Assembly: GCA_964528665.1 (NCBI GenBank)
Contig: CAZGTB010000069.1
Coordinates: 1-21,529, forward strand
Source: an uncultured Syntrophorhabdus sp.
GTDB taxonomy: Bacteria; Desulfobacterota; Syntrophorhabdia; Syntrophorhabdales; Syntrophorhabdaceae
DNA length: 21,529 nt
Reading direction: 5' to 3'
In this document: piece after piece, positions 5,764-20,561 of the stretch
Numbering within the stretch: the stretch's first letter is position 1
How the letters are laid out: every line of letters begins with the position of its first letter
Translations under genes and position numbers: made by a program
Notes under the pieces: model-generated
The model's database searches: none
Seen by the model: the letters and a program-made list of their open reading frames with translations, nothing else
Told to the model about the DNA's origin: nothing

Positions 5764-5816
5764 CGAGCAGAGCCAAAACAACCAGCCTTTCGTTACACCG
5801 GAGTGGTAATAATGAG

Positions 5817-6095: not shown

Positions 6096-6129
6096 GACAG
6101 CAATTGAAGAAAATTACAAGTCTATATGC

Positions 6130-6888
6130 TTAAGCGGCAGGACATGCCTTCATGCAGTTGAAACACAAATATTGAAAACCCATTTGGAGCACATGGTACA
6201 GACGCCAATATTCGATATCTTTGAGCATAGTCTTCTTTTCTTCCGGGGATGCATCGACCAGTTTTGTCCAGAATCGTATGTTCGCACCAAGTCCATAGGG
6301 CTCCAACACCCTCATACATTTCATCACATCGGTCTTCCCCTTTTCATTTAAGGCCTCAGCGGGGCAGCTTTCCACGCAGAAATTACATCCAGTACAAAGG
6401 TTGTCCTGAAGGAGCAAATCTGTCTCAAGCTCAAGGTCTGTGAGAACGGCAGAAAATATCACTTTGTTTTTAAATCGAGGATGATAAACAAGGTTGTTTC
6501 TTCCCAATACACCGAGACCTGCTGCCACTGCTGCGTGGCGCAATGACACGTCTGCCACAAGTCCTTTGGTTTCTCGACTCATCTCCATGGGAAACGTGGC
6601 AGGGACGGCCATGGCCCTGCTGTTTAGCTCTGTTTCCAGAAACCGCGTCATTCTGTAGTTAGATGCCCTGAGGAATGCCATCAAGTCGAGCCTTCCGTTC
6701 ATGGCAATCTGGGGGCTTAGGCTCTCGCAATTTGAAAGCTCTCTGAACGCAAGTACGACTATCGAACGTACTTCGGGAAAGAGTTTTGCAATATCAGGTG
6801 ACCGTGGACTCCGGTAATCCGCAACTGCAGTAACACCTATATCGTCTGCCCCTACTTGTTTTGCAAAGTTTTTGATCTTCTCTTTCAT
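6130..6888 (-). CDS. QueG/RdhA-superfamily-like iron-sulfur protein (2x[4Fe-4S] ferredoxin-type motifs)
   Basis: IKNFAKQVGADDIGVT and LRHAAVAAGLGVLGRNNLVYHPRF..KVIFSAVLTDLEL resemble the epoxyqueuosine reductase/reductive dehalogenase core. Cluster motifs are CTGCNFCVESCP (CxxCxxCxxxCP) and CFNCMKACP. ATG 6888 lies 5 nt after AAGGAGG, and the track start GTG 6891 is one codon upstream. At 253 aa the protein is too short to be a canonical QueG. Confidence 0.75.
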   Translation of the reverse strand: MKEKIKNFAKQVGADDIGVTAVADYRSPRSPDIAKLFPEVRSIVVLAFRELSNCESLSPQIAMNGRLDLMAFLRASNYRMTRFLETELNSRAMAVPATFPMEMSRETKGLVADVSLRHAAVAAGLGVLGRNNLVYHPRFKNKVIFSAVLTDLELETDLLLQDNLCTGCNFCVESCPAEALNEKGKTDVMKCMRVLEPYGLGANIRFWTKLVDASPEEKKTMLKDIEYWRLYHVLQMGFQYLCFNCMKACPAA

Positions 6889-9280: not shown

Positions 9281-11149
9281 TCAGGCACCTTTTAATCCTA
9301 AACGTGGGTAGACAACCTGCCGCCAGAAGAGACTTAAAATTACCATATATCCAAACACGTTTAGGTACCACACTTGCGGAATAAGACAGGCACTTCCTAT
9401 TAGGATAACCGCCCTTTCTACAAAATTAAGGCTTACTCTTGCAAAACCCAGAAACGACATCGAGATCCCGCTTATCGCGATAAATGCTGTTACGATACGG
9501 AAGGCAGCATAGAAAAAGGAACCTCTGAGCAGCAGTTCGGGCGAGTACACGAAGAGAAATGGAACAATAAATGTTGGTGCCGATATCAAAAATGCAAGAT
9601 TTGTTGTTTTTAACGGATCTGTCTTGGCAATCCCGGCTGCAGCAAAAGAACACGGTGCTGAAGGTGGCGTAATATTGCCAAGGACACCGAAGTGAAATAC
9701 AAAGAGATGTGCTGCCATAGGGTCGACCCCAGCCTTAATGAGGGCCGGCGCTGCGAGGATTGCGAGGATAAGGTATGCCGTGACGGGCGGGAGGGGCAGT
9801 CCGATTATGAGCGAGGCTATTGCGGTCAGTACAAGAAGGATAAGCATGTTCCCTCCTGCCACATGAATAAGTATTTCTGAAAACCTCAAGCCTAGTCCTG
9901 TCAGGTTAATCACACCTTCAATGATTCCCGCGGAAGCACACGCCATGATTACAACCAGCGCAGTCTTAGGCCCATTCTCCAGAGCTAACAAAATCTTCTT
10001 TAATGACATGCGGGTACTCTTCCTGATCATGCTCACTGCAAATATAGCAACTACCGCCCAGAAACCGGCCTTTTTCGTTGAAACATCTGACACAATAAGT
10101 AGGTACAAAACAACCAGGATCGGGAGAAAAAGATGACCATATTCCTTCATGAGCGGACCCATTCTGGGAAGCTCTGCTTTGGGTACTTTCACAAGGCCGA
10201 GTTTATTCGCCTGGACTTGCATGAAAGTGAACACGGCTGCATAAAAGAGAAGCCCAGGTATTAAGGCTGCCCGCATAACATCGATGTAGCTTCCGCCGAT
10301 AAGTTCTGGAATGATGAATGCAGCAGCACCCATCACGGGCGGGACGAGCATCCCTCCTGTCGCGGCCACCGCCTCCATTGCTGCTGCCATCATGGGTTTA
10401 TAACCGGTCTTCACCATCAATGGTATCGCGAGTGTTCCAACCGCTACTGCATTGGCCGTCTGGCTCCCCGTCATCATTCCGAAAAGCAGGTTGGCCAAGA
10501 CAGCCGCCTTTGCGGCACCCCCTTTGAACCTCCCAAACAGACCGTAGCCAATGTTCGTAAAGGCCTGGCTTCCCCCTGTCTGTTCCATGAAAGCTCCGAA
10601 AATAAGGAAAATAATGATTACTGTAGCTGAAACGCCGACAGCTACCCCTAAAATACCCTCTGTACCCAAGAACATGTGAGCGACCACTCTTTCAAAGGTA
10701 TACCCACTATGAGCAAACATTGGTGGTAGATGCGTGCCAAAAGCCACATACGCAAGACTTAAGGCTACCAAAACGCACATGGTAAGGCCCATGAGCCGTC
10801 TTGTCGCTTCTCCAACAAGAACTATTGCAGCGGTGCCCACGATGCAGTCAACGGTGTTCGGCGTACCTTCTCTTCCGACAATGTCCTGATATTGTGTGAG
10901 CACATAGGCCCCGATGAAAACACTAAAAAATAGAAGGATATAATCCACTGCCGAGTAAAGCCACGAATATTTACCTTGAAGCTCCTTTTTCAACGGATAA
11001 AGGAGAAAAACAAGGAGTAGACCGAAACAAAGATGGATTGATCTCTGCTGCATCGCCGGAAGCTGTTGGACTCCCGCAGTGTAGACTTGAAAAAGGGACA
11101 TCGCAACAGCTGTAACAGTTATAATGTTCTTGGTTGTTAGCCATTTCAT
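9281..11149 (-). CDS. TRAP transporter fused permease (TAXI-type 4TM/12TM DctQ-DctM fusion)
   Basis: A 622-aa polytopic protein placed 30 nt downstream of a TAXI receptor gene. Its length and glycine/alanine-rich TM pattern are typical of fused TAXI-TRAP permeases. It has an ATG start with GGGGGA upstream. Confidence 0.88.
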   Translation of the reverse strand: MKWLTTKNIITVTAVAMSLFQVYTAGVQQLPAMQQRSIHLCFGLLLVFLLYPLKKELQGKYSWLYSAVDYILLFFSVFIGAYVLTQYQDIVGREGTPNTVDCIVGTAAIVLVGEATRRLMGLTMCVLVALSLAYVAFGTHLPPMFAHSGYTFERVVAHMFLGTEGILGVAVGVSATVIIIFLIFGAFMEQTGGSQAFTNIGYGLFGRFKGGAAKAAVLANLLFGMMTGSQTANAVAVGTLAIPLMVKTGYKPMMAAAMEAVAATGGMLVPPVMGAAAFIIPELIGGSYIDVMRAALIPGLLFYAAVFTFMQVQANKLGLVKVPKAELPRMGPLMKEYGHLFLPILVVLYLLIVSDVSTKKAGFWAVVAIFAVSMIRKSTRMSLKKILLALENGPKTALVVIMACASAGIIEGVINLTGLGLRFSEILIHVAGGNMLILLVLTAIASLIIGLPLPPVTAYLILAILAAPALIKAGVDPMAAHLFVFHFGVLGNITPPSAPCSFAAAGIAKTDPLKTTNLAFLISAPTFIVPFLFVYSPELLLRGSFFYAAFRIVTAFIAISGISMSFLGFARVSLNFVERAVILIGSACLIPQVWYLNVFGYMVILSLFWRQVVYPRLGLKGA

Positions 11150-11179
11150 GCTTTCCCCCAGTCTTAAACCGTTTGATTG

Positions 11180-12154
11180 TTACTTTTTGAAAATTCCCAC
11201 TTCCCTAAAATATTTTTCTGCGCCAGGATGAAAGGGAAACATAATCGTTCTCTTCACATTCTCTTGGTTCATCTCTTTGGCAATAGGATGGATTTCAATT
11301 AATTCGTTTCTATGTTCAAAGAGGGCTTTTGTTATCTTGTACACCAGTTCCGTGCTCACGCCGCTATGGGTTTCCAAAGGTGTGCCAAAGACCACAATGA
11401 CTGTATCCTTATCAATTCCCTTATAAGAACCAGTTTTCAATGTCTCACTATACAAATACGGATTTTCCTCCAGGAACTTTTTCAATACCTTATCATCGAC
11501 GGGAATAATTCTTATCTCTCTCCGGGCGCTCATCTCTTTAAGTGCGGGGATCGGGAATGCTCCCGAGATAAATCCCGCGTCGATACTTCCATCCTGCAAA
11601 CCTTCCACTACCTCTTTATAGCCAAGCCACACAGGCTTATACATATCTTTTGTTAAACCATGGGCCTCCAGCAGATCCTTGCTGATTTCGGAGGTTCCGC
11701 TACCAGCTGCTCCAAGGGCAACCCTTCTGCCTTTTAAATCATTATAAGTTTTTATGGGTGAGTTCTTGTAGACAACCAAATTGAGTCCAGATCCGTACAA
11801 AAAGGTTATCGCTCTGAGATCTGAGTAGGCCTTTGTAAAAGGCGGTTTCCCGCTATACCCGAGGTAAAGCAGTTTGGAATCACTGATTCCAAAAGCCCCC
11901 TGCCCCTTGCTTTTCTTCTCGTCAATAAACTTGATTGTCGCTGCCGACCCACCCGTTCCTTCAACCATCATCTGGATTTCTGGTACGTATTTGTTTACAA
12001 CTTTAGAAATGGCTCCCCCAAGAAAGTATGCGGTTCCACCCGAACCTGGGGTATAGATTGGCACTACCTCTTTTGCAGCAGTGGGTATGGGTTGACATAC
12101 TATAATGCTTAAGCTCACAATAACGGCTATTATTATCATTCCTAAGGTTTTCAT
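11180..12154 (-). CDS. TAXI-family TRAP transporter solute-binding receptor
   Basis: A 324-aa protein with a signal peptide (MKTLGMIIIAVIVSLSIIVCQP). GSGGTAYFLGGAISKVV, GTGGSAATIKF and RVALGAAGSGTE..S are hallmarks of TAXI (TRAP-associated extracytoplasmic immunogenic) receptors. AAGGAGG SD and ATG start. Confidence 0.9.
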   Translation of the reverse strand: MKTLGMIIIAVIVSLSIIVCQPIPTAAKEVVPIYTPGSGGTAYFLGGAISKVVNKYVPEIQMMVEGTGGSAATIKFIDEKKSKGQGAFGISDSKLLYLGYSGKPPFTKAYSDLRAITFLYGSGLNLVVYKNSPIKTYNDLKGRRVALGAAGSGTSEISKDLLEAHGLTKDMYKPVWLGYKEVVEGLQDGSIDAGFISGAFPIPALKEMSARREIRIIPVDDKVLKKFLEENPYLYSETLKTGSYKGIDKDTVIVVFGTPLETHSGVSTELVYKITKALFEHRNELIEIHPIAKEMNQENVKRTIMFPFHPGAEKYFREVGIFKK

Positions 12155-12174
12155 GTTTCCTCCTTAATTCTGAT

Positions 12175-12202
12175 GGGATACAAAGGGAATCCTTCGTATC
12201 CC
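12175..12202 (-). other. Stable intercistronic stem-loop between the ligase and TAXI receptor genes
   Basis: On the mRNA (minus) strand the sequence is GGGAUACGAAGG-AUUC-CCUUUGUAUCCC. That gives a 12-bp stem (one G-U) with a 4-nt loop. No U-tract follows, and the hairpin ends about 18 nt before the receptor SD. Confidence 0.5.
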
Positions 12203-12247
12203 TCTGCATCCCTCAATCCTGATTACTCCAATTGCGGACATAGCATG

Positions 12248-13822
12248 TTAAGTCCTCTTCTGCATTTCCAAATACTTTGGCCTCATTTTGACTTTTTCAA
12301 TCTTACCAGTTGGGTTTCTCATTACCTCGTCAAAAATAATCCGTCTAGGCCTCTTATACCTCGGCAGGTTCTGCTCAAAAAACTGGAATAACTCCTTCTC
12401 CGTCTCGTCGGAACCAGGTATGTCTGATTTTAGCTTAATTACCGCAGCAACTATCTCGCCGAGCCTGTCGTCGGGAAGCCCTATCACCCCCACATCGTGT
12501 ACCTTGGGATGAGTCTGTATGACCTCTTCTACTTCTGAGGGATAGACATTTTCGCCCCCGCAGATTATCAAATCTTTTTTCCTGTCCACGATCCAGTAGA
12601 AACCATCCTCATCCATTCTTGCCAAATCGCCGGTGTAAAGCCAACCGTCTTTAACGGTCTCAGCTGTTTTCTCCGGGTTCTTATAGTATTCCCTCATTAC
12701 ACCGTTTCCTCTAATTATGATCTCGCCAATCTCCCCCTGGGGCACATCATTTCCGAAGTCATCAACAAGTCGCGCTTCCCAGTTAAAGCCGGGTTTTCCT
12801 ATCGATCCAACTTTGTGCGGATTTTCAATGCCCAGGTGCAGGCTTTGCGGCCCCGTGCCTTCTGTCAGTCCGTAGTTTTCGTCAAAGAGCATATCTGGGA
12901 ATTCCTGTTTCCATTTGGTCATAAGGTTAGGCGGCACAGATTGCGCTCCATACATCACCAATCTCCATTGGCTTAAATCGTAATCCTCTTTCTTGAGTGT
13001 ACCCTTTTCCAACTCGGTCAGGATATCCTGAAGCCAAGGAACAAGGAGCATCACAACGGTGCATTTTTCTTTTTCCATAACCTCAAATATTGCTTCAGGC
13101 GTTATTTTATCACTCTGAATTACTGCTCGCTCACCGAGGATCAGGCTTGAGAGCCAATGTATGAAATCCCCAGTATGATATAAAGGTTTGAGAATAGCGA
13201 ACACGTCTCCGGGTTCTCGAAGCTTGTGTACCACTTCTATGATGGCTGCGTGTTCCATGTTGTTGTGCGTCAGAAGAATGGGCTTTGGCGCCCCTGTTGT
13301 ACCGGAGGTGAAATAGAGCCCGCAGGGATCCTGGGGCTCTATTGATACATGAAACGGCTCGGAAGGGGATCGGGCAAGCACCGCTTCAAGATCCTCCATA
13401 TCACCTGCTGCTGGCCCACCATTCACCAAAGACTTGTTTCGTATGGAAGGAAGGGCTCCCGAGGTCCGCACCCTGTCAACAAATTCCGCGTCAACAATTG
13501 CCACCTTCGGCTTGGTTATGTCTACACAATACTTAAAATCCTTATCATTAAATCGAAAATTGAGAGGCACTACGATTGCGCCTGTGCGGATGATGCCGAA
13601 ATACACTTCGAGCCAAGTTTTGGAGTTCATCATCCAATGCACTACCATGTCACCCTTCCCAACATCTCTATTCTTAAGCGCATTGGCGATCCTGTTTACT
13701 CTCTCATTGAACTCTTTCCAGGTGACCTGAACTCGCAGCTTTTTGCTCGGCACCCTTTCCACCAGTGCAACTCTGTTGGGATACATCCTGGCATTTCTTG
13801 CCACCATCTCCGAAATAGTCAT
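12248..13822 (-). CDS. AMP-forming acyl/aryl-CoA ligase (class I adenylate-forming enzyme)
   Basis: AMP-binding signature YFTSGTTGAPKPILLTHNN. The core also includes YGLTEGTG, WLYTGDLARMDEDGFYWIVDRKKDLII.GGENVYP.EVE and a C-terminal PRYKRPR...NPTGKI. A strong AGGAGGAGGAGG SD precedes the ATG, and the gene starts 27 nt after the UbiD-like stop. Confidence 0.9.
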   Translation of the reverse strand: MTISEMVARNARMYPNRVALVERVPSKKLRVQVTWKEFNERVNRIANALKNRDVGKGDMVVHWMMNSKTWLEVYFGIIRTGAIVVPLNFRFNDKDFKYCVDITKPKVAIVDAEFVDRVRTSGALPSIRNKSLVNGGPAAGDMEDLEAVLARSPSEPFHVSIEPQDPCGLYFTSGTTGAPKPILLTHNNMEHAAIIEVVHKLREPGDVFAILKPLYHTGDFIHWLSSLILGERAVIQSDKITPEAIFEVMEKEKCTVVMLLVPWLQDILTELEKGTLKKEDYDLSQWRLVMYGAQSVPPNLMTKWKQEFPDMLFDENYGLTEGTGPQSLHLGIENPHKVGSIGKPGFNWEARLVDDFGNDVPQGEIGEIIIRGNGVMREYYKNPEKTAETVKDGWLYTGDLARMDEDGFYWIVDRKKDLIICGGENVYPSEVEEVIQTHPKVHDVGVIGLPDDRLGEIVAAVIKLKSDIPGSDETEKELFQFFEQNLPRYKRPRRIIFDEVMRNPTGKIEKVKMRPKYLEMQKRT

Positions 13823-13849
13823 GCCTCCTCCTCCTGGACTCCCTGAATA

Positions 13850-15364
13850 CTACCAGCCGTGTTTCGCTAGGGTCTTTGCATAGTCGGTCTGCATGGATCG
13901 TACTTCACGAATCTGTTCCTCGGTGAACCATTTCTTCAGATCGATCTTGTCGACAGGATACTGGGGTCTCTGGAAATAGTGCTTCGTCTTGTACGGCTTC
14001 GTCGCATCGAATGCCATACCGCCTTCCCAGCCTCCTACGCCGCTTATCCTTGCCTCAATGGGTTGTGCAGCTATTCCCCTGGCACCGCGAGGGAGCTTCA
14101 ATATATCATAATCGGGATCGACCCTGCTCTCTATGGCCCAGATGACATCATCGGCGTTATAGATGTCCACATCTTCATCGACGGCAACAGCCATTCGTAT
14201 CCCGGGCGCATCAGCAAGAGCAGCAAGAAGGATGTTTCGCTGGAATCCTTCATCCTGAGCTCTTTCCTTGCGAATCTGGAAAATTACTCCGCTGCCCCAT
14301 TTGAAGTAGTCAGGGATGTTAACGTCTACACAAATTCCCGGGGCTATCCTTTCGGCCATCTCAAAGAACGAGGCCTCTCTAGACAGGTCAAAGCACGTGT
14401 ATTCAAGTCCAGCCGCGAGTGGCGTGTAAAAGATCGGATTCTTGCGCATGGTTATTGCCGTGACTGTGAGTTTACGGACTTTCCATGCAGTCCCCATGTA
14501 CCCGACCCATTCTGGGAAGAAGTTCGTCTCTCCCTGTCTTTGTATGCCTAATTTCTCGGATTCGTCGCTTTCCCACACATTCTCAGAGGTTGGTTCGAGG
14601 TAGCCTTCGAGCACAATCTCGGCATCCGCAATCGAGTAAGCATCAACTGTTCTTGCCTTTACCAGCTCAATTGGGGCGCCTTGGAATCCGCCGGCTATTC
14701 CGAGCTCATCGCCACCGTGAGGTACTATCGTCCTGACATGCCATGCTCCGGCAACCCACCCGGCTGCTGGTGGAGGATTGATATTGACGGTCACGGGAAT
14801 CCTGTCATCTCGATGGGTTTTAAAGCACATCTGGCCGATGTGAGTAATCTGGGCCGTTGAGATGGATGCCCAATTCTTTCCCCTGAAATGGATCCTATTG
14901 AAGGAAATGTTGGTGTCTCCCTTTCTGTAAACATCAGTCAGAAGCTGGTTGCCGCAACCCATAATACGACCAGCATCAAATTCAGTATGCTTGATTATTG
15001 GCAGGGTAGCGAGAACATCGATATTCTTGTCGATAACCACTTCCTGAACTGGAGCATCTTTAACAATCTTCGGAGCAATAGGGTCGCGAATAGCATCCAC
15101 AAACTTGAATTTCATCTTGTTGGGGTCTTCTATACCGAAGATATCAGCCCACGGTTCACGACGCCCGAAAAAGTTTGTTATGTTGACATAATCCGGATAA
15201 CCTTTAATCTTCTCGAATTTGAGAATCGGACCTTTTTCAAAGGACTTTGCAATGGCTGCGACCTCGTATATGGGATCAACCTCTTTCTTGACATGCATTA
15301 CATAGCCCTTCTTATCCAGGTACTCAAGGGCGCTTCTAACACTTCTTGCATCTTTTTTGCTCAT
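13850..15364 (-). CDS. UbiD-family (prFMN-dependent) reversible decarboxylase
   Basis: A 504-aa protein of UbiD length and layout. The N-terminal SVRSALEYLDKKGYVMHVKKEVDPIYEVAAIAK matches the family's LR.fl..Le..Gel..i...vdp..Eiaai opening. AAGGAGG SD, ATG start and TAG stop. A UbiX gene lies in the same locus. Confidence 0.9.
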   Translation of the reverse strand: MSKKDARSVRSALEYLDKKGYVMHVKKEVDPIYEVAAIAKSFEKGPILKFEKIKGYPDYVNITNFFGRREPWADIFGIEDPNKMKFKFVDAIRDPIAPKIVKDAPVQEVVIDKNIDVLATLPIIKHTEFDAGRIMGCGNQLLTDVYRKGDTNISFNRIHFRGKNWASISTAQITHIGQMCFKTHRDDRIPVTVNINPPPAAGWVAGAWHVRTIVPHGGDELGIAGGFQGAPIELVKARTVDAYSIADAEIVLEGYLEPTSENVWESDESEKLGIQRQGETNFFPEWVGYMGTAWKVRKLTVTAITMRKNPIFYTPLAAGLEYTCFDLSREASFFEMAERIAPGICVDVNIPDYFKWGSGVIFQIRKERAQDEGFQRNILLAALADAPGIRMAVAVDEDVDIYNADDVIWAIESRVDPDYDILKLPRGARGIAAQPIEARISGVGGWEGGMAFDATKPYKTKHYFQRPQYPVDKIDLKKWFTEEQIREVRSMQTDYAKTLAKHGW

Positions 15365-15413
15365 TGTACTACCTCCTTAAGAGTTTTTATGCGGTGCATT
15401 TGACACGTACAGA

Positions 15414-15430
15414 TTGCAATTAGGATGCCT
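15414..15430 (-). promoter_or_regulatory. Sigma-54 (-24/-12) promoter for the ubiD-like/ligase/TAXI-TRAP operon
   Basis: The minus strand reads aGGCATcctaaTTGCAa, with exactly 10 nt between GG and GC. This is a close match to TGGCAC-N5-TTGCA. The -12 element lies about 50 nt upstream of the ubiD-like ATG. Confidence 0.7.
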
Positions 15431-15480
15431 TTTTTCACTAACTCTTTAACTTATTAGAATTACACAGGTTAAATTTTCCA

Positions 15481-15509
15481 TTGACAAAAAATTCCTGCCA
15501 AGGTATTGT
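15481..15509 (+). promoter_or_regulatory. Sigma-70-type promoter for the activator gene
   Basis: Perfect -35 TTGACA (15481-15486), a 17-nt spacer and -10 TATTGT (15504-15509). The -10 box overlaps the first half-site of the palindrome. Confidence 0.5.
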
Positions 15510-15531
15510 CCATATTATGGACATGTCCATA
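15507..15531. promoter_or_regulatory. Three-half-site palindromic operator/UAS TGTCCATA-t-TATGGACA-TGTCCATA
   Basis: Half-sites lie at 15507-15514, 15516-15523 and 15524-15531. They form two overlapping perfect palindromes. The site sits 80-100 bp upstream of the -24 element of the divergent sigma-54 promoter and over the -10/+1 region of the activator's own promoter. Confidence 0.6.
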
Positions 15532-15544
15532 AAAGAGAATATTA

Positions 15545-17011
15545 TTGGAATTATCAATGAGAAATGACGAAAGAACGCTATTATCAAGCTTTTTCGAAGT
15601 CCTCGGCCGATACTCACTCAATGATATTGTTGGGTGGGCTCTCAGGTTCTGTTTTCGAAATCCTTACGAAAGCATTACTATTGTTGATAAAAACGGTCGT
15701 GTCCAATTTATGGACAAACCGACGGAGGAGTTCTTTGGGCTAAAGCAGGGAGAAGCAGCGGGGATGGACATTCGTGACCTTGTTCCTCACACAAATGTGC
15801 CACTTACGATAGCTACCGGCAAACCACAGATAGGGAAAATATGGGAAGTAAGGGGAATTAAAAGGATCAGCTCAGTCTATCCACTTATAAAGAATGGAGA
15901 AATCATTGGTGCTGTCGGTAAAATACTTTTTCATTCCTTGGAAGAAATCGAAAGAATCAATGAAGAAATACAGAGACTTAACAAAGAAATACATTATCTC
16001 AAACAAAAGGAAAAAACCGAATATAGCTCGCTATATACCTTTAACAATATCCTTGGTAACAGTGCGCGCATCCGAGAAACGATTGAGATCGCAAAGAAAA
16101 TTGCGCCCCTTGATACGGACGTACTCATTGTCGGAGAAAGCGGAACCGGCAAGGAGTTGTTCGCCCACAGCATTCATAGCCTCACGCATCCAGACAGACC
16201 GTTTGTTAAAATTAACTGTCCGGCCATTCCCTTTGAACTGGCAGAATCACAGTTATTTGGTTATGAAAAGGGAGCATTCACCGGCGCAACCACCGTCGGC
16301 AAGCCTGGAGCCTTTGAAGCGGCAGAGGGTGGCACGGTATTTCTGGACGAAATCTCTTCTCTGCCCCTTTCCATCCAGGCAAAACTTCTTCGCGTGCTCC
16401 AGGAGCGTGAAGTAACAAGGCTTGGTAGCTCGAAGACAAAAAAAATAAATTTCAGATCCATTGCTGCTACAAATGTAGACTTACGCAGATTAGTACAGGA
16501 AAGAAAGTTTCGTCACGACCTATACTACAGAGTGGCAAAAGCCATAGTCCCTATCCCTCCACTGAGAGAGAGAAGAGAAGATATACCTTTCTATCTCAAC
16601 AGTTTTCTGGAAATGATTAATCGGTCGTTCAAGACCAGCATTCGGGGATTTTCGCGCGAAGCCTTCCAAGCCCTAATTCAATATGACTGGCCGGGTAACG
16701 TGAGGGAATTGATAAATGTGTTGGAACAGGTAGCGATCCGAGCCATCACTGATGAAGAGATAAGCATAGAAGCTCTTCCAGAGGACGTGTGTTTACTGAA
16801 AATAGGATTGGCAGGGAAAGATATCAACACCAGTAACGTCGTAGGCATAAAACAACACATGACAAGAGTGGAAAGGGATGCAATCATTTCCGCGCTCAAG
16901 GAGACTGGCGGAAACAGACAAAAAACAGCACAACTTCTCAAGATGCCAAGATCAACATTGTATAAGAAACTGGCAGCCTACAACATCTCTAACGATTCCT
17001 CGACCCTTTGA
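15545..17011 (+). CDS. Sigma-54-dependent transcriptional activator (PAS-like sensor, AAA+ domain, Fis-type HTH)
   Basis: Walker A GESGTGKELFA, the sigma-54 contact loop GAFTGA (EKGAFTGA), Walker B VFLDEI, and R-finger region RVLQEREVTRLGS. The C-terminal HTH is GGNRQKTAQLLKMPRSTLYKKL. The N-terminal ~130 aa look PAS-like (ITIVDKNGRVQFMDKPTEEFFG). The start is either TTG 15545 or ATG 15557. Confidence 0.9.
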   Translation: MELSMRNDERTLLSSFFEVLGRYSLNDIVGWALRFCFRNPYESITIVDKNGRVQFMDKPTEEFFGLKQGEAAGMDIRDLVPHTNVPLTIATGKPQIGKIWEVRGIKRISSVYPLIKNGEIIGAVGKILFHSLEEIERINEEIQRLNKEIHYLKQKEKTEYSSLYTFNNILGNSARIRETIEIAKKIAPLDTDVLIVGESGTGKELFAHSIHSLTHPDRPFVKINCPAIPFELAESQLFGYEKGAFTGATTVGKPGAFEAAEGGTVFLDEISSLPLSIQAKLLRVLQEREVTRLGSSKTKKINFRSIAATNVDLRRLVQERKFRHDLYYRVAKAIVPIPPLRERREDIPFYLNSFLEMINRSFKTSIRGFSREAFQALIQYDWPGNVRELINVLEQVAIRAITDEEISIEALPEDVCLLKIGLAGKDINTSNVVGIKQHMTRVERDAIISALKETGGNRQKTAQLLKMPRSTLYKKLAAYNISNDSSTL

Positions 17012-17211
17012 GTTACCTACTTGGGACGTACAGACCAAGCTAATCATCCATTAAACCTTCCTCCATAATTCCGTAGTTTGAGGATTCAGGTACATCGCCA
17101 CACAGTTAAACCAAGATATGAAAGCCCATCTGAAGTGCATGATTGAGACACTATCTAATAGTCAGCTATCCTTCCGCTCATTGGCTTTTGTACTGGACAA
17201 CACGGCACGAT

Positions 17212-17228
17212 AGTTGCACGTTTGCCGA
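17212..17228 (+). promoter_or_regulatory. Sigma-54 (-24/-12) promoter upstream of ubiX
   Basis: cGGCACgatagTTGCAc has GG at 17213-17214 and GC at 17225-17226, with the exact 10-nt spacing. It lies about 43 nt upstream of the ubiX ATG, which has a TAGGAGGT SD. Confidence 0.7.
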
Positions 17229-17268
17229 CCAATCATTCTAATCTATCTCTACATTAGGAGGTATAAAT

Positions 17269-17853
17269 ATGACTAGGATCGTTATTGGTATATCGGGAGC
17301 AACGGGCGTGATATACGGGATACGGATGTTGAAAGCCCTTGACGAGAGTGGAGTGGAGACTCACCTGGTCATCACCCAGTCAGCTATTAAGAATATGCTG
17401 ATTGAAACAGAATACACCATGGCAGATCTCGAACCCTTCGCGTCAAAAATCTATGACGTGGATGATGTGGGCGCAGCTATTGCCAGTGGTTCCTTTCCGG
17501 TGGATGGGATGGTCATAGCGCCTTGCTCTATAAAAACCCTTTCCGCTGTGGCAAATTCATTCAACTATAATCTCCTCATTAGGGCGGCTGATGTTAATCT
17601 TAAAGAAAGGAGGAGACTCGTTTTGCTTGTGAGGGAAACCCCTTTCCATGAGGGACATCTCGATCTCATGATGCGAGTAACACGAATGGGCGGTGTTATT
17701 ATGCCCCCGGTGCCTGCTTTCTACCATATGCCAAAAACTATAGAAGATATCATCAATCAGTCTGTCGGCAAGGTTCTTGATCTCTTTTCGATCGATGCCT
17801 CTCTCTTCAGGCGATGGGGCACCAGTCCAAAGGAAGAAATGAAGATTGTTTAG
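17269..17853 (+). CDS. ubiX: UbiX-family flavin prenyltransferase (prFMN synthase)
   Basis: A 194-aa protein carrying RIVIGISGATGVIYGIRMLKAL, THLVITQSA, MVIAPCSIKTLSAVANSF..NLLIRAADV.LKERR.LVL..RETP and MPPVPAFYH. These are the canonical UbiX/Pad1 motifs. Confidence 0.93.
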   Translation: MTRIVIGISGATGVIYGIRMLKALDESGVETHLVITQSAIKNMLIETEYTMADLEPFASKIYDVDDVGAAIASGSFPVDGMVIAPCSIKTLSAVANSFNYNLLIRAADVNLKERRRLVLLVRETPFHEGHLDLMMRVTRMGGVIMPPVPAFYHMPKTIEDIINQSVGKVLDLFSIDASLFRRWGTSPKEEMKIV

Positions 17854-17913: not shown

Positions 17914-18135
17914 TGACCTGTCCCCAATAAACCGGTCCAGGTGTTGAGGTATACTCTGGGCTGAATTTGACATAGGGAGGCAGAAAGAATGAAGAAGAAT
18001 GGGTTCACAACGGAACAGATCATCGGCAAGCTCAGGGAGGCTATGTGTTTCTCCCATAGGGCGACATGGCCAGGCAAGAAATTAGTTGGCTTGGGATCAC
18101 CGGGCCATACCATCTTTCGCTGTGCCGGCTAATCT
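17914..18135 (+). mobile_element. Decayed IS3-family (IS407-group-like) left end: terminal repeat plus frameshifted orfA stub
   Basis: TGACCTGTCCCC starts at 17914, and IS3-family ends begin with TG. An SD plus ATG at 17989 opens MKKNGFTTEQIIGKLREA, the typical IS3 OrfA N-terminus. The HTH continues only after a frame change (LGITGPYHLSLCRL versus the consensus LGIS..TFYRWRK), with a stop in between. The rest of the element is absent. Confidence 0.6.
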
Positions 18136-18376
18136 ATTTCAATCCGTAATGTTCAATTTTACAGGAAATTACCATACAACCTTTGTAGGTGCAAGTCGCT
18201 ATTTTTTATCATCAACCACTTTTGAAAAATTGTCCCGGGAAATTCTACCAAAAGTCTTTTTGAAACAACCGAGATTGTGTCATTCTCGTGCATACCAAAT
18301 TACAAATGGTAATCTCCCTTGCAGTACATACCCATCAAGCGGCGTTGTCGTAAATATGCTTGACTTATACAATTCC

Positions 18377-18404
18377 TTGACAGATTAACAAAACATGCTA
18401 ATCT
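18377..18404 (+). promoter_or_regulatory. Sigma-70-type promoter upstream of the small ORF and radical-SAM gene
   Basis: -35 TTGACA (18377-18382), a 16-nt spacer and an extended -10 TGcTAATCT (18396-18404). Confidence 0.4.
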
Positions 18405-18413
18405 TTTATTAAA

Positions 18414-18431
18414 GTTGATGTATTTATCAAC
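18414..18431. promoter_or_regulatory. Perfect palindrome GTTGAT-N6-ATCAAC between promoter and SD (possible operator)
   Basis: GTTGAT at 18414-18419 and ATCAAC at 18426-18431. It lies just downstream of the predicted -10 and about 10 nt upstream of the SD. Confidence 0.4.
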
Positions 18432-18457
18432 TATTTACATGAAAGGGGGTGTTTGTT

Positions 18458-18562
18458 GTGAAGAGGGCATTAGACAAAAAAGTATTGGAAAAAGAAGCGA
18501 CCTTCTGGCTGAATGCTAAAATTATTCATGCTAAATCGGCAACGAAGAAATGCCACAAGTGA
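18458..18562 (+). CDS. Unannotated 34-aa Lys-rich small ORF (candidate precursor peptide): MKRALDKKVLEKEATFWLNAKIIHAKSATKKCHK
   Basis: GTG start at 18458, 8 nt after the strong SD GAAAGGGGG, with an in-frame alternative GTG at 18449. TGA stop at 18560-18562. It is too short for the supplied ORF track. It sits 100-105 nt upstream of the radical-SAM/SPASM gene on the same strand. Confidence 0.45.
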   Translation: MKRALDKKVLEKEATFWLNAKIIHAKSATKKCHK

Positions 18563-18615
18563 AAAAGCTGAAAGGGTTAAACCCCAATGTTGCAGGTCTG
18601 CAACATTTATTGCGA

Positions 18616-18655
18616 CAGGCAGACAGGACTTTCATCTTGTCTGCCTGATTCTTTG
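18616..18655 (+). terminator. Hairpin/attenuator between the small ORF and the radical-SAM gene
   Basis: A perfect 10-bp stem pairs CAGGCAGACA (18616-18625) with TGTCTGCCTG (18638-18647). The loop is 12 nt and is followed by the moderately U-rich ATTCTTTG. A second small hairpin, GTTGCAG-gt-CTGCAAC, lies at 18589-18604. Confidence 0.5.
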
Positions 18656-18666
18656 AGAAATTGACT

Positions 18667-19728
18667 ATGACAACATCCAACAAACCCATGGAATTTTTCT
18701 TCCAGTGGCATCTTACTGAGCGATGTAACCTCAGATGCAGCCATTGCTATCAGGAAAGCAATCAGATGGAAGAGGTCTCTCTTGCCAATGCAAAAAAGAT
18801 CGTCGATACGGCGTATGGTACGATCAAGAGCTGGTCCGACGCCTACGAAATCGATTTTTCGCCAAGCTTTAATGTAACCGGCGGTGAACCTTTCCAGTCT
18901 TCCTATCTACAGGATATCCTCCACTACCTTATGGTAAAGGGATTTGACATATTCTTACTCACCAACGGGACGATGATCGACAGGGGAAAAGCACACATGC
19001 TGGCTGAGATCCCGGTTCAAGGTGTTCAGGTGAGCATCGAGGGACCGGAGGAGGTCCATGACCAAATCAGAGGCAAGGGCAGTTTCAAAAAGGCTATCAA
19101 CGGCGTCGACCAGCTTCTGAGTACAGGCCTTTCGGTCACTCTCAACGTGACCCTTTCGGATATTAATTGTGACTATTTGGGAGAATTAGTGGATCTTGCA
19201 GCGTCAGTGGGCGCCCAGCGACTTGGTTTCTCCAGGCTCGTTCCTTACGGCAGGGGCAAAGACCTCATTGACAGGATGATCCCGAAGAAGAAATTAAGGC
19301 AGGTCTATAGGGAAGTCTTGGAAATAAGGAATGAGAAGGTCCACATTGCTACAGGCGATCCTGTTGCGTCGCAGATGGGTGAAGAAGTAGATGATGGAAA
19401 TTCTGCCATACCTCTGGGAGGTTGCGCTGCTGGGGTCTCTGGCATAACTATCCTTCCGGACGGAACACTCACCCCATGCAGGAGATTTGGCATCCCCATC
19501 GGCAACATCCTCAATGATAAGCTCAGAGAAATATGGGCAGTGTCGCCGGTTCTTGAGTCGCTCCGGACTAAAGCAGCGTATAAAGGGAAATGTGGCAGGT
19601 GTCCACGATGGTCACAATGCCGGGGCTGCCGGGCCATAGCCTACGCATACTCCCTCTCCTGCGGGAAGGAAGACTATCTCGCCGAAGATCCGCAATGTTT
19701 TATTGATAATTCTTCATCTTATGCGTGA
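18667..19728 (+). CDS. Radical SAM enzyme with a full C-terminal SPASM domain (PqqE/AhbD/anSME-like); no N-terminal RRE domain
   Basis: CNLRCSHCY (CxxxCxxC) lies within the first ~30 residues, and GGEP is present. The SPASM pattern is visible as GGC-x12-G-x4-C (GGCAAGVSGITILPDGTLTPC), then CGRCPRWSQCRGC (C-x2-C-x5-C-x2-C), then DPQC. The start is ATG 18667, with TTG 18661 and ATG 18688 as alternatives. Confidence 0.9.
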   Translation: MTTSNKPMEFFFQWHLTERCNLRCSHCYQESNQMEEVSLANAKKIVDTAYGTIKSWSDAYEIDFSPSFNVTGGEPFQSSYLQDILHYLMVKGFDIFLLTNGTMIDRGKAHMLAEIPVQGVQVSIEGPEEVHDQIRGKGSFKKAINGVDQLLSTGLSVTLNVTLSDINCDYLGELVDLAASVGAQRLGFSRLVPYGRGKDLIDRMIPKKKLRQVYREVLEIRNEKVHIATGDPVASQMGEEVDDGNSAIPLGGCAAGVSGITILPDGTLTPCRRFGIPIGNILNDKLREIWAVSPVLESLRTKAAYKGKCGRCPRWSQCRGCRAIAYAYSLSCGKEDYLAEDPQCFIDNSSSYA

Positions 19729-19782
19729 CGGCATAAGGTCTGATGCTTACACTATTGTAAAATTCTTTTAAAGGAGCATGTT

Positions 19783-20328
19783 ATGGCGAAATGGAATATT
19801 GATCCGGATCACACAGTCGGTGAATTCACCATTAAACACATGATGGTAACTCCCGTCCATGGTCAGTTTAACAAAGTTTCTGGCACAATCTTCTTCGATC
19901 CCGCTGATCCGGCCAGTGCTTCAGTCGAGATAGAAATCGATATGGCAGGTATTTACACTGGTGTAGATCGCAGGGATAACCATCTTCAAAGCGCTGATTT
20001 TTTTGATGTAGAAAAATATCCCACAATGCACTTCAAGAGTACCCTTATTGAGGTGGTTGGGCTCAATCACTGTAAGGTCAACGGTGATCTCACAATTCAC
20101 GGAATAACCCGGTCCGTGATGTTTGATGTTATATTTAATGGTCCTTCGCGATTCTTCGACGAGGAAGAAAACCAGATGTATACCACATTCGGCTTCCGTG
20201 CCACCACGTGCATCAATCGCGAAGACTTCGGATTGAAGTGGAATCTTGGTATAGAAGATGGCGGCTTCATGGTGGGTAAGCATGTGGACATCGTCTTTAA
20301 TGCCGAGGCAGATCTATTAAATGAATAA
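19783..20328 (+). CDS. YceI-family (lipid/polyisoprenoid-binding beta-barrel) protein, no signal peptide
   Basis: WNIDPDHTVGEFTIKHMMVTPVHGQFNKVSGTIFFDP, RDNHLQSADFFDVEKYPTMHFKST, GDLTIHGITRSV and INREDFGL are the canonical YceI-like domain motifs. AAAGGAG SD. The gene starts 55 nt after the radical-SAM stop. Confidence 0.9.
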   Translation: MAKWNIDPDHTVGEFTIKHMMVTPVHGQFNKVSGTIFFDPADPASASVEIEIDMAGIYTGVDRRDNHLQSADFFDVEKYPTMHFKSTLIEVVGLNHCKVNGDLTIHGITRSVMFDVIFNGPSRFFDEEENQMYTTFGFRATTCINREDFGLKWNLGIEDGGFMVGKHVDIVFNAEADLLNE

Positions 20329-20561
20329 AAGGGGTATATTGCTATCTGACGGAGGAATGAGGGGAATAGTTATGGCATACTTCTATTGGTAATCGATAAA
20401 CTTTAGCCACCATGATTCTGTTTAGTAGTAGGTGCAGTCAATAAATACAAGGTATGCTTTTTACAGTACCAACGCGCCCGCGCGCAAGAGAGCATTTCTT
20501 ACAGCCCTGCTCCGTGGAAAAAGGCTCACAACCACGAGGTGTCGGAAGAAACAACACATCT

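What the first reader, a model, noticed from the sequence alone, without database searches (positions are those of the whole stretch)
18377..19728. Unannotated 34-aa Lys-rich peptide gene with its own promoter, operator-like palindrome and attenuator hairpin, directly upstream of a radical-SAM/SPASM enzyme: candidate novel RiPP-like cassette
Seen in sequence:
- A near-consensus promoter (TTGACA-16-TGcTAATCT).
- A perfect GTTGAT-N6-ATCAAC palindrome.
- A strong SD (GAAAGGGGG) followed by a GTG-initiated 34-codon ORF, MKRALDKKVLEKEATFWLNAKIIHAKSATKKCHK.
- A perfect 10-bp hairpin with a U-rich tail.
- 13-20 nt later, a radical-SAM gene with a complete 7-Cys SPASM domain.

Established knowledge: precursor, hairpin, rSAM/SPASM maturase is the standard layout of sactipeptide, ranthipeptide, streptide (Lys-Trp) and related RiPP loci.

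Inference: the peptide has an amphipathic leader-like N-half and a core with one Trp, one Cys (KKCHK) and many Lys. A thioether or Lys-Trp type crosslink is therefore conceivable.

Caveats: the enzyme has no N-terminal RRE/PqqD-like domain and no PqqD gene is nearby. It could instead be a cofactor- or protein-modifying SPASM enzyme (AhbD/anSME-like), with the small ORF a coincidence.
Basis: partly seen in the sequence, partly recalled or inferred. Interest (0 to 1): 0.75.

Follow-up and report, generated by a model that had tools for sequence, protein, structure and literature searches.

The report
Hidden two-selenocysteine peptide beside radical-SAM enzyme
The "34-residue peptide" very probably does not stop at its TGA: it appears to read through two TGA codons as selenocysteine, giving a 40-residue peptide ending C-H-K-U-K-S-U-K-G. 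This peptide is conserved next to the same radical-SAM enzyme in several bacterial phyla and seems to be an unrecognised selenium-containing peptide family.

Summary
But the peptide was mis-delimited and its key feature was missed.

- **Reading frame.** After the TGA at 18560-62 the frame continues AAA AGC TGA AAG GGT TAA. The hairpin AATGTTGCA-GGTC-TGCAACATT (18586-18607) follows.
- **SECIS resemblance.** That hairpin shares a 14-mer and its GGUC loop with the E. coli fdhF SECIS.
- **Unbiased sample.** In 67 unique metagenome sequences chosen without regard to this region, the first TGA is kept in 67/67 and the second in 65/67. Neither is ever TAA, TAG or TGY.
- **Coding signal.** The Lys codons after each TGA vary only at the third base. 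The true terminator alternates TAA/TGA/TAG.
- **Hairpin.** It shows compensatory changes and starts 16-18 nt after the second UGA in most loci (fdhF: 18; this window: 23).
- **Association.** A homologous RRE-less rSAM/SPASM enzyme follows the peptide in 81/95 unique loci. rSAM homologues at ≥39% identity have the peptide in 15/16 genome loci; those checked at ≤37% do not.
- **Prior description.** No curated family or paper found describes it, and databases hold only 34-aa "hypothetical" truncations.

Best reading: a two-selenocysteine RiPP-like precursor. It is analogous to the SbtM selenopeptide system, the only one found in the papers searched, but not a member of it.

The parts
18377..18404 (+). 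Promoter: -35 TTGACA, 16-nt spacer, extended -10 TGcTAATCT
   Evidence: Read. The simple scan does not call it. The TTGAC[AGC]-N13-TGn-TAnnnT spacing is conserved across clades. Homology to related cassettes begins at about 18363-18375.
18414..18431 (+). Perfect palindrome GTTGAT-N6-ATCAAC just downstream of the -10 box. Probably a 5'-UTR stem-loop; an operator is not excluded.
   Evidence: It is replaced by a different palindrome (AGCTGA-N6-TCAGCT) at the same place in L005.
18441..18451 (+). Shine-Dalgarno GAAAGGGGGTG
   Evidence: A conserved (A)GGRGGTGA lies 6-8 nt before the start codon in all clades.
18458..18580 (+). Selenopeptide gene: 40 codons plus TAA, encoding MKRALDKKVLEKEATFWLNAKIIHAKSATKKCHK-U-KS-U-KG
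   Evidence: dN/dS 0.06-0.24. Codon periodicity continues past the first TGA.
18560..18562 (+). First in-frame TGA (inferred selenocysteine U35). This is the 'stop' of the 34-aa call.
   Evidence: TGA in 67/67 unbiased unique sequences; never TAA, TAG or TGY.
18569..18571 (+). Second in-frame TGA (inferred selenocysteine U38)
   Evidence: TGA in 65/67. The two exceptions are a deletion and a frameshift.
18586..18607 (+). SECIS-like hairpin AATGTTGCA-GGTC-TGCAACATT (loop 18595-18598)
   Evidence: Shares the 14-mer GTTGCAGGTCTGCA with the fdhF SECIS. Covariation is supported. Matches to the consensus pattern expected by chance in this window: 0.02.
18616..18657 (+). Terminator/attenuator-like hairpin (13 pairs) with a T-rich tail, between the peptide and the rSAM
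   Evidence: Conserved with compensatory changes in the window clade. Absent in Syntrophales and Dehalococcoidia loci.
18667..19728 (+). Radical-SAM/SPASM enzyme, 353 aa, with no N-terminal RRE. The inferred auxiliary cluster 1 has only three Cys ligands.
19783..20328 (+). YceI-like protein without a signal peptide; a recurrent accessory partner
   Evidence: Pfam YceI 1.5e-50. Found with the peptide in 23 unique loci, in several gene orders. The cassette homology ends at about 20329.

Best explanation
Window 18363-20329 is a self-contained, horizontally shuffled cassette. It has its own promoter and a 5'-UTR stem, followed by a 40-codon gene.

The ribosome reads through two UGA codons (18560, 18569) as selenocysteine. 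An fdhF-type SECIS hairpin placed just 3' of the true stop (TAA 18578) directs this. The product is MKRAL...EATFW...KKC-H-K-U-K-S-U-K-G.

The N-terminal ~30 residues (conserved [KR]EAxFW) act as a recognition (leader-like) segment. The C-terminal Cys/Sec/Sec triad is the site acted on by the co-transcribed, RRE-less rSAM/SPASM enzyme.

By analogy with CteB, PapB and Tte1186, a substrate thiolate or selenolate would bind the open iron site of auxiliary cluster 1. The 5'-deoxyadenosyl radical would then abstract a hydrogen nearby. The result would be a selenoether/thioether cross-link or an SbtM-like oxidised heterocycle.

The terminator-like hairpin between the genes, present in this clade only, would give more peptide than enzyme transcript. 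The cytoplasmic YceI lipocalin-like protein is an accessory binder or partner of the product. No protease or exporter belongs to the cassette, so an intracellular redox, metal or cofactor role is more likely than a secreted antibiotic.

Shown here: the gene is real; the frame and both TGAs are conserved; the hairpin has structure, covariation and correct placement; the peptide associates with the rSAM and with YceI.

Inferred: Sec insertion itself; that the peptide is the enzyme's substrate; the chemistry; the cellular role.
For: 1. Coding past the TGA. In 67 unique sequences fetched with a pattern that places no constraint after N-P-G-K, codon 5 is TGA in 67/67 and codon 8 is TGA in 65/67. 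The flanking Lys codons vary only at the third position (0.75-0.97 bits versus 0.00-0.11 at the first two positions). The middle codon is AGT/AGC/TCC/GGC/GGT/GAA/GAG/GCT/AAG. The true terminator is TAA 51, TGA 40, TAG 16, and the tail after U2 varies by whole codons (2-4). TGA is an ordinary stop for 5 of 14 window genes.
2. SECIS. The fdhF element was verified in 5419 E. coli genomes. The window hairpin shares its 14-mer and its GGUC loop. In 107 unique loci the stem is 6-9 bp and the loop is GGUC/GGUCA/GUU/GUC. The loop starts 16-18 nt after UGA2 in 83/107 (fdhF: 18). The six core pairs are 100% paired in 75 distinct sequences, with compensatory changes at four of them. The covariation score is 0.235 versus 0.135 for shuffles (0/500).
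3. Association. All ten rSAM contexts fetched at 59-95% identity have the peptide. Of 16 genome loci at >=39% identity, 15 have it; the ten loci at <=37% that were examined (L026-L035) have none. The rSAM follows the peptide in 81/95 unique loci. The two genes overlap out of frame in Syntrophales.
4. Enzyme. There is no N-terminal domain. Seven SPASM Cys map onto CteB AC1 (three) and AC2 (four; the fourth, C344, lies outside the aligned region and is assumed to match CteB C432). The nearest solved structures are all peptide- or protein-modifying enzymes: SkfB, anSME, SuiB, ChlB, CteB, PqqE.
5. Precedents. SbtM acts on a Sec-containing peptide (PMC9204691). PapB and Tte1186 bind Sec at AC1 and make selenoethers (PMC10177961). 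UxxU double-Sec motifs exist in bacterial selenoproteins (PMC13188914).
Against: - No Cys-for-Sec homologue was found among 184 database clusters or 107 unique loci. The classical Cys/Sec-pair evidence is therefore missing.
- Sec machinery (selA/B/C/D) could not be checked in the same genomes. No tRNA-Sec lies in the 1.1 Mb held, and no other selenoprotein gene is in the window.
- One hairpin must serve two UGAs 9 nt apart. In the window clade the spacing is 23 and 32 nt, longer than in fdhF.
- Rfam has no matching model.
- About 15% of peptide copies have no adjacent rSAM, so modification may not be obligatory.
- Nothing here shows the chemistry, or that the peptide is substrate rather than partner.
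Confidence: 0.6

Rival explanations
1. The 40-residue di-selenocysteine peptide is real but is not the enzyme's substrate. It works unmodified as a small redox or metal-binding selenoprotein: a C-x-x-U-x-x-U chelator or selenol/diselenide couple. In that role it could be a partner, electron or chalcogen donor, or protectant of the rSAM enzyme. It could also be part of an oxidative-stress module together with YceI.
For: - Some peptide copies lack an adjacent rSAM. They sit next to YceI plus a pyridine-nucleotide disulfide oxidoreductase (L132), next to Fe/Mn superoxide dismutase (L095/L130), or divergent from YceI (L106, L137, L178).
- Neighbourhoods often hold Usp, hemerythrin and ABM genes.
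- UxxU motifs in other selenoproteins are annotated as redox or metal binding.
- No protease or exporter is in the cassette.
Against: - There is 85% direct adjacency and even gene overlap with one specific rSAM clade.
- The enzyme has the open-AC1 arrangement typical of enzymes that ligate a substrate Cys or Sec.
- All its nearest structural relatives modify peptides or proteins.
- Orphan precursor copies are common in RiPP systems (own knowledge).
Confidence: 0.22
2. The ORF is a regulatory leader. The tandem UGA codons plus the SECIS sense the supply of selenium (Sec-tRNA/SelB). Read-through or stalling then decides whether the downstream terminator-like hairpin forms, so that rSAM and YceI expression is tuned to selenium.
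For: - The layout is a short ORF, two special codons, a SelB-type hairpin, and then a terminator-like hairpin 8 nt further on, just before the enzyme gene.
- SECIS-like elements are known to act as regulators in the E. coli selAB leader (own knowledge, not checked here).
Against: - The peptide sequence outside the UGAs is conserved across phyla under purifying selection ([KR]EAxFW; dN/dS 0.06-0.24). That is unusual for leader peptides.
- The terminator-like hairpin is missing in Syntrophales and Dehalococcoidia loci, where the genes abut or overlap.
- Peptide copies exist with no enzyme gene downstream.
Confidence: 0.08
3. Translation ends at the first TGA, giving a 34-aa Cys/Trp/Lys peptide. 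The conserved downstream sequence would then be only an RNA processing, stability or protein-binding element.
For: - Every gene caller stops there: 34-aa entries dominate the database.
- No Cys homologue proves Sec.
- Hairpins after precursor genes are common in RiPP operons (own knowledge).
Against: - A plain stop would drift among TAA, TAG and TGA, as the real terminator does (51/40/16). Instead it is TGA in 67/67.
- Third-position-only variation and synonymous Ser/Gly/Glu codon switches continue in frame after it.
- A second invariant TGA lies exactly 9 nt on.
- The hairpin matches fdhF-type SECIS sequence and geometry.
Confidence: 0.07

Closest known systems
SbtM / SbtMa (TIGR04082 / TIGR04081 'selenobacteriocin'), the thio(seleno)oxazole RiPP system of Geobacter and Desulfobacteria
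   Same: - A ribosomal peptide with (at least) two UGA-encoded selenocysteines near its C-terminus.
- A SECIS just downstream.
- An adjacent rSAM/SPASM enzyme.
- Occurrence in anaerobic Deltaproteobacteria-type organisms (PMC9204691; PMC13188914).
   Different: - The enzyme scores 142 bits against a cut-off of 350, and aligns only to SbtM positions 198-516, so SbtM's N-terminal ~190 residues are absent.
- The peptide does not match TIGR04081 even at E<=10.
- The motif is C-x-x-U-x-x-U-K rather than G-G-U-G / S-G-U-G. There is no Gly before the Sec, although the reported oxazole forms from the Gly-Cys/Sec unit.
- The phyletic range here also includes Nitrospirota and Dehalococcoidia.
E. coli fdhF-type bacterial SECIS
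   Same: - Apical stem-loop GUUGCA-GGUC-UGCA.
- A G-G-U loop start.
- The loop begins 16-18 nt after the (second) UGA in most loci, versus 18 nt in fdhF.
   Different: - It lies in the 3' untranslated region, or across the stop codon, of a tiny ORF rather than inside a long one.
- It must serve two UGAs 9 nt apart.
- Spacing is 23 nt in the window clade.
- SelB binding is untested.
Sactipeptide / ranthipeptide thioether maturases (CteB, PapB, Tte1186, SkfB)
   Same: - A SPASM or twitch architecture.
- Three-Cys AC1 with an open site.
- These enzymes accept Sec and form selenoethers, with the Se bound to AC1 (PMC10177961).
- SkfB is the best PDB hit.
   Different: - There is no RRE or other N-terminal domain.
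- Scores are far below the family cut-offs: PapB 76/340, SkfB 69/300, AlbA 82/850.
- The natural substrate here encodes Sec itself.
AhbD / NirJ heme-pathway rSAM enzymes, and anSME
   Same: - AhbD and NirJ2 are the best-scoring curated models (171 and 167 bits).
- The size is the same (~350 aa) with no RRE.
- anSME is the only solved structure that aligns end to end.
   Different: - Scores are about one third of the cut-offs (500).
- No ahb or nir genes are nearby.
- Loci with rSAMs at <=37% identity (archaeal, AhbD-like) lack the peptide.
- anSME has a fully Cys-ligated AC1 (own knowledge); here no extra Cys lies between C253 and C271.
Bacterial UxxU double-selenocysteine proteins (Prx-like oxidoreductase, NF041115 metal-binding protein, FmdB-family)
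   Same: Two Sec residues separated by two residues, presumably decoded with one SECIS (PMC13188914).
   Different: - Those are domains of larger proteins, and the standard discovery methods that found them rely on Cys/Sec pairs in alignments (PMC13188914).
- This is a 40-aa free-standing peptide with no Cys form found and with a dedicated rSAM partner.

Membership tests
SbtM maturase (TIGR04082) | Whole-protein score at or above the curated cut-off (350 bits), with full-length match including the N-terminal ~190 residues | tested here: not met
   141.9 bits. The match covers profile positions 198-516 only.
SbtMa / selenobacteriocin precursor (TIGR04081) | The peptide matches the family model, with Sec embedded in a GGUG / SGUG motif | tested here: not met
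   No NCBIfam hit at E<=10 with U written as C or as X. The motif here is C-x-x-U-x-x-U-K. The SbtMa motif is taken from PMC9204691 and PMC13188914.
Sec-containing rSAM-modified peptide (functional class) | In-frame UGA(s) with a SECIS in a short ORF adjacent to an rSAM/SPASM gene | tested here: met
Bacterial SECIS (fdhF type) | A stem-loop shortly 3' of the UGA, with G/GU at the start of the apical loop and the correct spacing | tested here: met
   Loops are GGUC/GGUCA/GUU/GUC. The stem is 6-9 bp with covariation. The loop starts 16-18 nt after UGA2 in 83/107 loci, versus 18 nt in fdhF.
Bacterial SECIS (fdhF type) | Binds SelB and directs Sec insertion; the genome encodes selA/B/C/D | not testable with these tools
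   Only short loci are held. No tRNA-Sec is in them.
Selenoprotein (classical bioinformatic criterion) | Homologues with Cys aligned to the UGA position | tested here: not met
   None among 184 clusters (50 read) or 107 unique loci. This weakens the proof but does not contradict Sec.
AhbD heme b synthase (TIGR04545) | Score >= 500 bits, with an ahbABC / siroheme-pathway context | tested here: not met
   170.6 bits. No heme-pathway genes are in the window or in 10 related contexts.
anSME | Acts on the sulfatase C/S-x-P-x-R motif, with a sulfatase gene nearby; eight SPASM Cys with a fully ligated AC1 | tested here: not met
   The peptide has no CxPxR, and no sulfatase gene was called in the window or in the ten fetched contexts. 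Only seven C-terminal Cys are invariant. The anSME features are from own knowledge.
Sactipeptide / ranthipeptide maturases (CteB, PapB, AlbA, SkfB) | Family-model score above the cut-off, with an N-terminal RRE (or Fe-S) peptide-binding domain | tested here: not met
   PapB 76/340, AlbA 82/850, SkfB 69/300, StsB 83/625. The protein starts 13 residues before CX3CX2C, and the PDB matches start after the partners' N-terminal domains.
SPASM subfamily of radical SAM | CX3CX2C plus the seven-Cys motif CX9-15GX4C ... CX2CX5CX2-3C ... C | tested here: met
   Pfam Radical_SAM 3.7e-18 and SPASM 2.4e-9. C20/24/27 and C253/271/309/312/318/321/344 are invariant in 16 homologues.
Streptide-type (KxxxW) Lys-Trp cross-linked peptides | A conserved K-x-x-x-W core next to a dedicated maturase | tested here: not met
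   Trp lies in the leader-like EAxFW motif and is not invariant (F/Q in Dehalococcoidia). No K-x-x-x-W is conserved. WgkB scores 109/650.

The most novel reading that the evidence does not exclude
This is an unrecognised and widespread class of peptide natural product or cofactor that obligately contains two selenocysteines. It spans Desulfobacterota-type 'delta' lineages, Nitrospirota, Geobacter, Syntrophales and Dehalococcoidia. It was missed because no Cys-containing homologue exists for alignment-based selenoprotein discovery to find.

An RRE-less, AhbD-like SPASM enzyme would convert the C-x-x-U-x-x-U-K tail into a selenoether- or selenium-heterocycle-containing product. That product would act inside the cell as a redox or metal-binding cofactor, handed to a cytoplasmic YceI lipocalin.

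A corollary is that a single SECIS decodes two UGAs 9 nt apart in a 40-codon ORF.
Probability: 0.3. Interest if true: 0.9.

Novelty: new variant of a known kind. Interest (0 to 1): 0.82.

Why it matters
- **A second selenopeptide system.** In the papers I could search, SbtM is the only described radical-SAM system that acts on a selenocysteine-containing peptide. A second, unrelated and much more widely distributed family would show that selenium-bearing ribosomal peptides are a recurrent strategy in anaerobes. It would also offer new C-Se chemistry to characterise.
- **A blind spot in discovery.** Methods that need Cys/Sec pairs, and gene callers that stop at TGA, yield only 34-aa 'hypothetical proteins' here.
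- **Direct experiments.** The system is small enough to test at once: a 40-mer peptide, one 353-aa enzyme and one YceI protein.
- **A translation question.** It raises how one SECIS can serve two UGAs three codons apart.

Tried and rejected
- **Rfam.** The gathering-threshold search of the whole window gave no match. A permissive E-value search of 18380-18700 gave only a chance miRNA hit on the second hairpin. The library holds no usable bacterial SECIS model for this element.
- **NCBIfam and Pfam on the peptide.** Nothing was found for the 34-aa form or for the 40-aa form with U written as C or X.
- **Cys-for-Sec homologues.** A profile search of 5.8 billion proteins returned only truncated 34-aa forms.
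- **Alignment-driven metagenome scan.** I replaced it with a hand-made degenerate DNA pattern.
- **Independent evidence of Sec use.** The window has no other ORF convincingly interrupted by TGA. ARAGORN found no tRNA-Sec in the held loci.
- **AhbD/NirJ or anSME identity.** Rejected on scores and context.
- **Streptide-like Lys-Trp idea.** Rejected because the Trp is not invariant and lies in the leader-like part.
- **Operator reading of the palindrome.** Not rejected, but weakened by the compensatory change seen in L005.
- **Structure prediction.** It gave a confident barrel but a poor SPASM domain (pLDDT 72), so I used it only for fold ranking.
- **Papers not held.** The primary SbtM paper and Haft & Tolstoy 2025 are not in the library. 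A prior description there cannot be excluded.
Full report
**1. What is in the sequence**

| Element | Coordinates | Notes |
|---|---|---|
| Promoter | TTGACA 18377-82; TGc-TAATCT 18396-18404 | 16-nt spacer |
| Palindrome | 18414-18431 | GTTGAT-N6-ATCAAC, perfect |
| Shine-Dalgarno | 18441-18451 | GAAAGGGGGTG |
| Start codon | 18458 | GTG |
| First TGA | 18560-62 | ends the 34-codon ORF as called |
| Second hairpin | 18616-18647 | T-rich tail |
| rSAM/SPASM gene | 18667-19728 | ATG start |

- The terminator scan calls the second hairpin, with 13 pairs.
- The promoter scan does not call the promoter, because TAATCT matches only 3 of 6 positions of the -10 consensus.
- The enzyme has CX3CX2C and seven invariant C-terminal cysteines.
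- A YceI gene follows at 19783-20328.

**2. The small ORF is a real, conserved gene tied to this enzyme**

The rSAM falls far below every curated family cut-off. Its best match is AhbD, at 171 bits against 500. It has thousands of homologues.

All ten genomic contexts fetched for homologues at 59-95% identity have the same small ORF immediately upstream, although the flanking genes are unrelated. The gene callers themselves called a 34-aa gene there in the distant loci.

In the window's clade, dN/dS on the ORF is 0.06-0.24 with saturated dS. blastn puts the shared block at about 18363-18375 to 20329. That block is promoter, peptide, hairpins, rSAM and YceI, so it behaves as a cassette.

**3. 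The ORF does not end at the TGA**

In frame, the sequence reads TGC CAC AAG TGA AAA AGC TGA AAG GGT TAA. In distant loci the same frame reads, for example:
- TGC CAC AAA TGA AAG TCC TGA AAG GGT TAG
- TGC TTC AGC TGA AAG AAG TGA AAA AAT CAA TAA

To test this without bias, I fetched metagenome loci with a degenerate pattern for E-A-A-F-W, nine residues, then N-P-G-K. The pattern places no constraint on what follows.

Results for the 67 unique sequences:
- The first TGA is present in 67/67.
- The second TGA, 9 nt further on, is present in 65/67. The two exceptions are a deletion (L110) and a frameshift (L119).
- Neither position is ever TAA, TAG, TGC, TGT or TGG.
- The Cys codon alternates TGC/TGT.
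- The Lys codons before and after each TGA vary only at the third base.
- The codon between the TGAs runs through synonymous and conservative sets: AGT/AGC/TCC, GGC/GGT, GAA/GAG, GCT and AAG.

The genuine terminator behaves like a stop codon. It is TAA 51, TGA 40 and TAG 16 in 107 unique sequences, and the tail after the second TGA varies by whole codons. TGA is a normal stop for 5 of 14 genes in the window, including the rSAM itself. Read-through must therefore be local.

**4. A SECIS-like hairpin sits where it should**

At 18586-18607 lies AATGTTGCA-GGTC-TGCAACATT. I checked my recollection of the E. coli fdhF SECIS. The 48-mer TGACACGGCCCATCGGTTGCAGGTCTGCACC... is 100% identical inside fdhF in 5419 of 5426 genomes. 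It shares GTTGCAGGTCTGCA with the window. A consensus pattern for the hairpin is expected 0.02 times by chance in this window.

Across 107 unique loci:
- The stem is 6-9 bp.
- The loop is GGUC, GGUCA, GUU or GUC.
- The loop begins 16-18 nt after the second UGA in 83 loci (fdhF: 18 nt).
- In the window's clade the distance is 23 nt.

On an alignment of 75 distinct hairpins:
- The six core pairs are paired in 100% of sequences.
- Four of them show compensatory double changes.
- The covariation score is 0.235, against 0.135 for shuffles (0/500 reach it) and at most 0.108 for slid controls.

Rfam holds no model that matches.

**5. Extent of the family**

The genome scan places the peptide-rSAM pair in 'delta proteobacteria', Nitrospirota/Thermodesulfovibrionales, Geobacter, Syntrophales/Syntrophaceae and Dehalococcoidia/Chloroflexia.
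- rSAM homologues at ≥39% identity have the peptide in 15 of 16 loci. L013 is the exception.
- The ten loci at ≤37% identity that I examined (L026-L035; archaeal and other AhbD-like enzymes) have none.

The invariant part of the peptide is C-x-x-U-x-x-U-K, plus an E-A in a leader-like [KR]EAxFW motif. The Trp is not invariant.

A profile search of the 5.8-billion-protein database finds 184 clusters.
- Almost all are 34 aa at 85% coverage.
- All named ones are 'hypothetical protein'.
- All 50 sequences I read end exactly at C-x-K/N.
- No Cys-containing full-length form appears.

**6. Association in the other direction**

Among unique peptide-bearing loci with enough sequence, an rSAM homologue follows directly in 81/95.

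In Syntrophales-type loci the only possible rSAM start codons lie inside the peptide's last codons. The two genes therefore overlap out of frame, and the hairpin lies inside the rSAM ORF.

YceI accompanies the peptide in 23 unique loci, in several orders:
- peptide-rSAM-YceI
- peptide-YceI-rSAM
- peptide-YceI
- YceI divergent from the peptide

Copies without an rSAM sit next to YceI plus a pyridine-nucleotide disulfide oxidoreductase, or next to a Fe/Mn superoxide dismutase.

**7. The enzyme**

It begins 13 residues before the CX3CX2C motif, so it has no RRE or other N-terminal domain.
- The best PDB sequence hits are SkfB, PqqE, CteB and anSME.
- The fold search ranks SkfB, anSME, SuiB, ChlB, CteB and PqqE first. 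anSME is the only end-to-end match.

In the HMMER alignment to CteB (cluster assignments from PMC10177961):
- C253, C271 and C321 align with the AC1 ligands C344, C362 and C413.
- C309, C312 and C318 align with the AC2 ligands.
- C344 lies beyond the aligned region and presumably matches the fourth AC2 ligand, C432.

AC1 thus has three protein ligands and an open site. PapB and Tte1186 share this arrangement. They bind a substrate Cys or Sec at AC1 and form thio- or selenoethers.

**8. Mechanism proposed**

*Shown here:*
- The gene is real.
- Coding continues through two invariant UGAs.
- An fdhF-like, covarying hairpin lies at SECIS distance.
- The peptide is specifically coupled to one rSAM clade and, less tightly, to YceI.

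*Inferred:*
- Both UGAs are read as selenocysteine.
- The 40-mer is the enzyme's substrate.
- The C/U/U tail binds AC1 and is cross-linked or oxidised.
- In this clade the terminator-like hairpin sets the peptide-to-enzyme ratio.
- The product acts inside the cell, because the cassette holds no protease or exporter and the YceI has no signal peptide.

*Rivals:*
- An unmodified redox or metal-binding selenopeptide that partners the enzyme.
- A selenium-sensing leader peptide.
- A true 34-aa product followed by an unrelated RNA element.

The last two fit the data poorly.

**9. Comparison with what is known**

The one precedent found is SbtM/SbtMa (PMC9204691; listed as 'selenobacteriocin', TIGR04081, SGUG motif, in PMC13188914). 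This system works like it in outline, but it fails each membership test:
- The enzyme scores 142 against a cut-off of 350 and lacks the N-terminal region.
- The peptide does not match the family model.
- The motif differs.

UxxU double-Sec motifs are known in larger bacterial selenoproteins. The review notes that standard discovery relies on Cys/Sec pairs. That would explain why a family without Cys forms was missed.

I found no description of this family in NCBIfam release 20, in Pfam, or in the searchable literature. Two relevant papers were not available.

**10. Weak points**

- There are no Cys homologues.
- Sec machinery could not be checked in the same genomes.
- One hairpin must serve two UGAs, and spacing is longer in the window clade.
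- About 15% of peptide copies lack an adjacent rSAM.
- The chemistry is unknown.

**Verdict.** The most likely object is a new family of two-selenocysteine peptides paired with a dedicated rSAM/SPASM enzyme.

Noticed in passing
window 9281-17853: A gene cluster that looks like an aromatic-acid uptake, activation and decarboxylation module. On the minus strand: a TRAP transporter (DctM fusion plus an NMT1_3 binding protein), an AMP-binding CoA ligase and a UbiD-like decarboxylase. On the plus strand: a divergent sigma-54 activator (PAS/AAA+/HTH_8) and a UbiX flavin prenyltransferase.
   Followed up: no
window 19783-20328; L020, L132, L194, L106, L137, L178: A signal-peptide-less YceI protein recurs with the selenopeptide in several different gene orders, sometimes with no rSAM between them or none nearby. 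This suggests a direct functional link between YceI and the peptide.
   Followed up: partly
L132 (peptide at ~248-330, YceI 640-1203, next ORF from 1217); L095 3060-3635; L130: Peptide copies without an adjacent rSAM are followed by redox genes. In L132 these are YceI plus a pyridine-nucleotide disulfide oxidoreductase. In L095 and L130 it is a Fe/Mn superoxide dismutase. The neighbourhoods have a redox or oxidative-stress flavour.
   Followed up: partly
L017, L018, L019, L025 (around the peptide's Cys codon): In Syntrophales-type loci the rSAM ORF can only start at an ATG or GTG inside the peptide's last codons. The genes therefore overlap out of frame, and the SECIS-like hairpin lies inside the rSAM coding region.
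   Followed up: partly
window 18414-18431 and the equivalent place in L003, L005, L010: The palindrome after the -10 box keeps its symmetry but changes sequence: GTTGAT/ATCAAC versus AGCTGA/TCAGCT. This fits a 5'-UTR RNA stem at least as well as a protein operator.
   Followed up: partly
window 18560-18580 and all related loci: The C-terminal tail looks like a 9-nt repeat (AAG-NNN-TGA). In 40 of 107 unique sequences the terminator itself is a third TGA sitting at the foot of the hairpin, presumably too close to be recoded.
   Followed up: partly
window 18574-18585: The window clade carries a 6-nt insertion (…GGGTTAAACCCC…) between the second TGA and the SECIS-like hairpin. It can form a small extra stem around the TAA stop, and it lengthens the UGA-to-loop spacing from 17 to 23 nt.
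   Followed up: no
window 18086-18388: A 100-aa ORF with no family match overlaps the cassette promoter. Homology with L001 begins at 18261, inside it. It is probably not a gene.
   Followed up: partly
window 4411-6130: A stretch of about 1.7 kb with only short ORFs and no convincing family match. The only hit is a weak DUF5666 match for 5173-5559.
   Followed up: no
L013 2500-3000: This is the one rSAM homologue at >=39% identity (54%, Thermodesulfovibrionales) without the peptide upstream. The intergenic region keeps a long GGCAGGGC…GCCCTGCC inverted repeat reminiscent of the second hairpin, which suggests the peptide gene was lost.
   Followed up: partly
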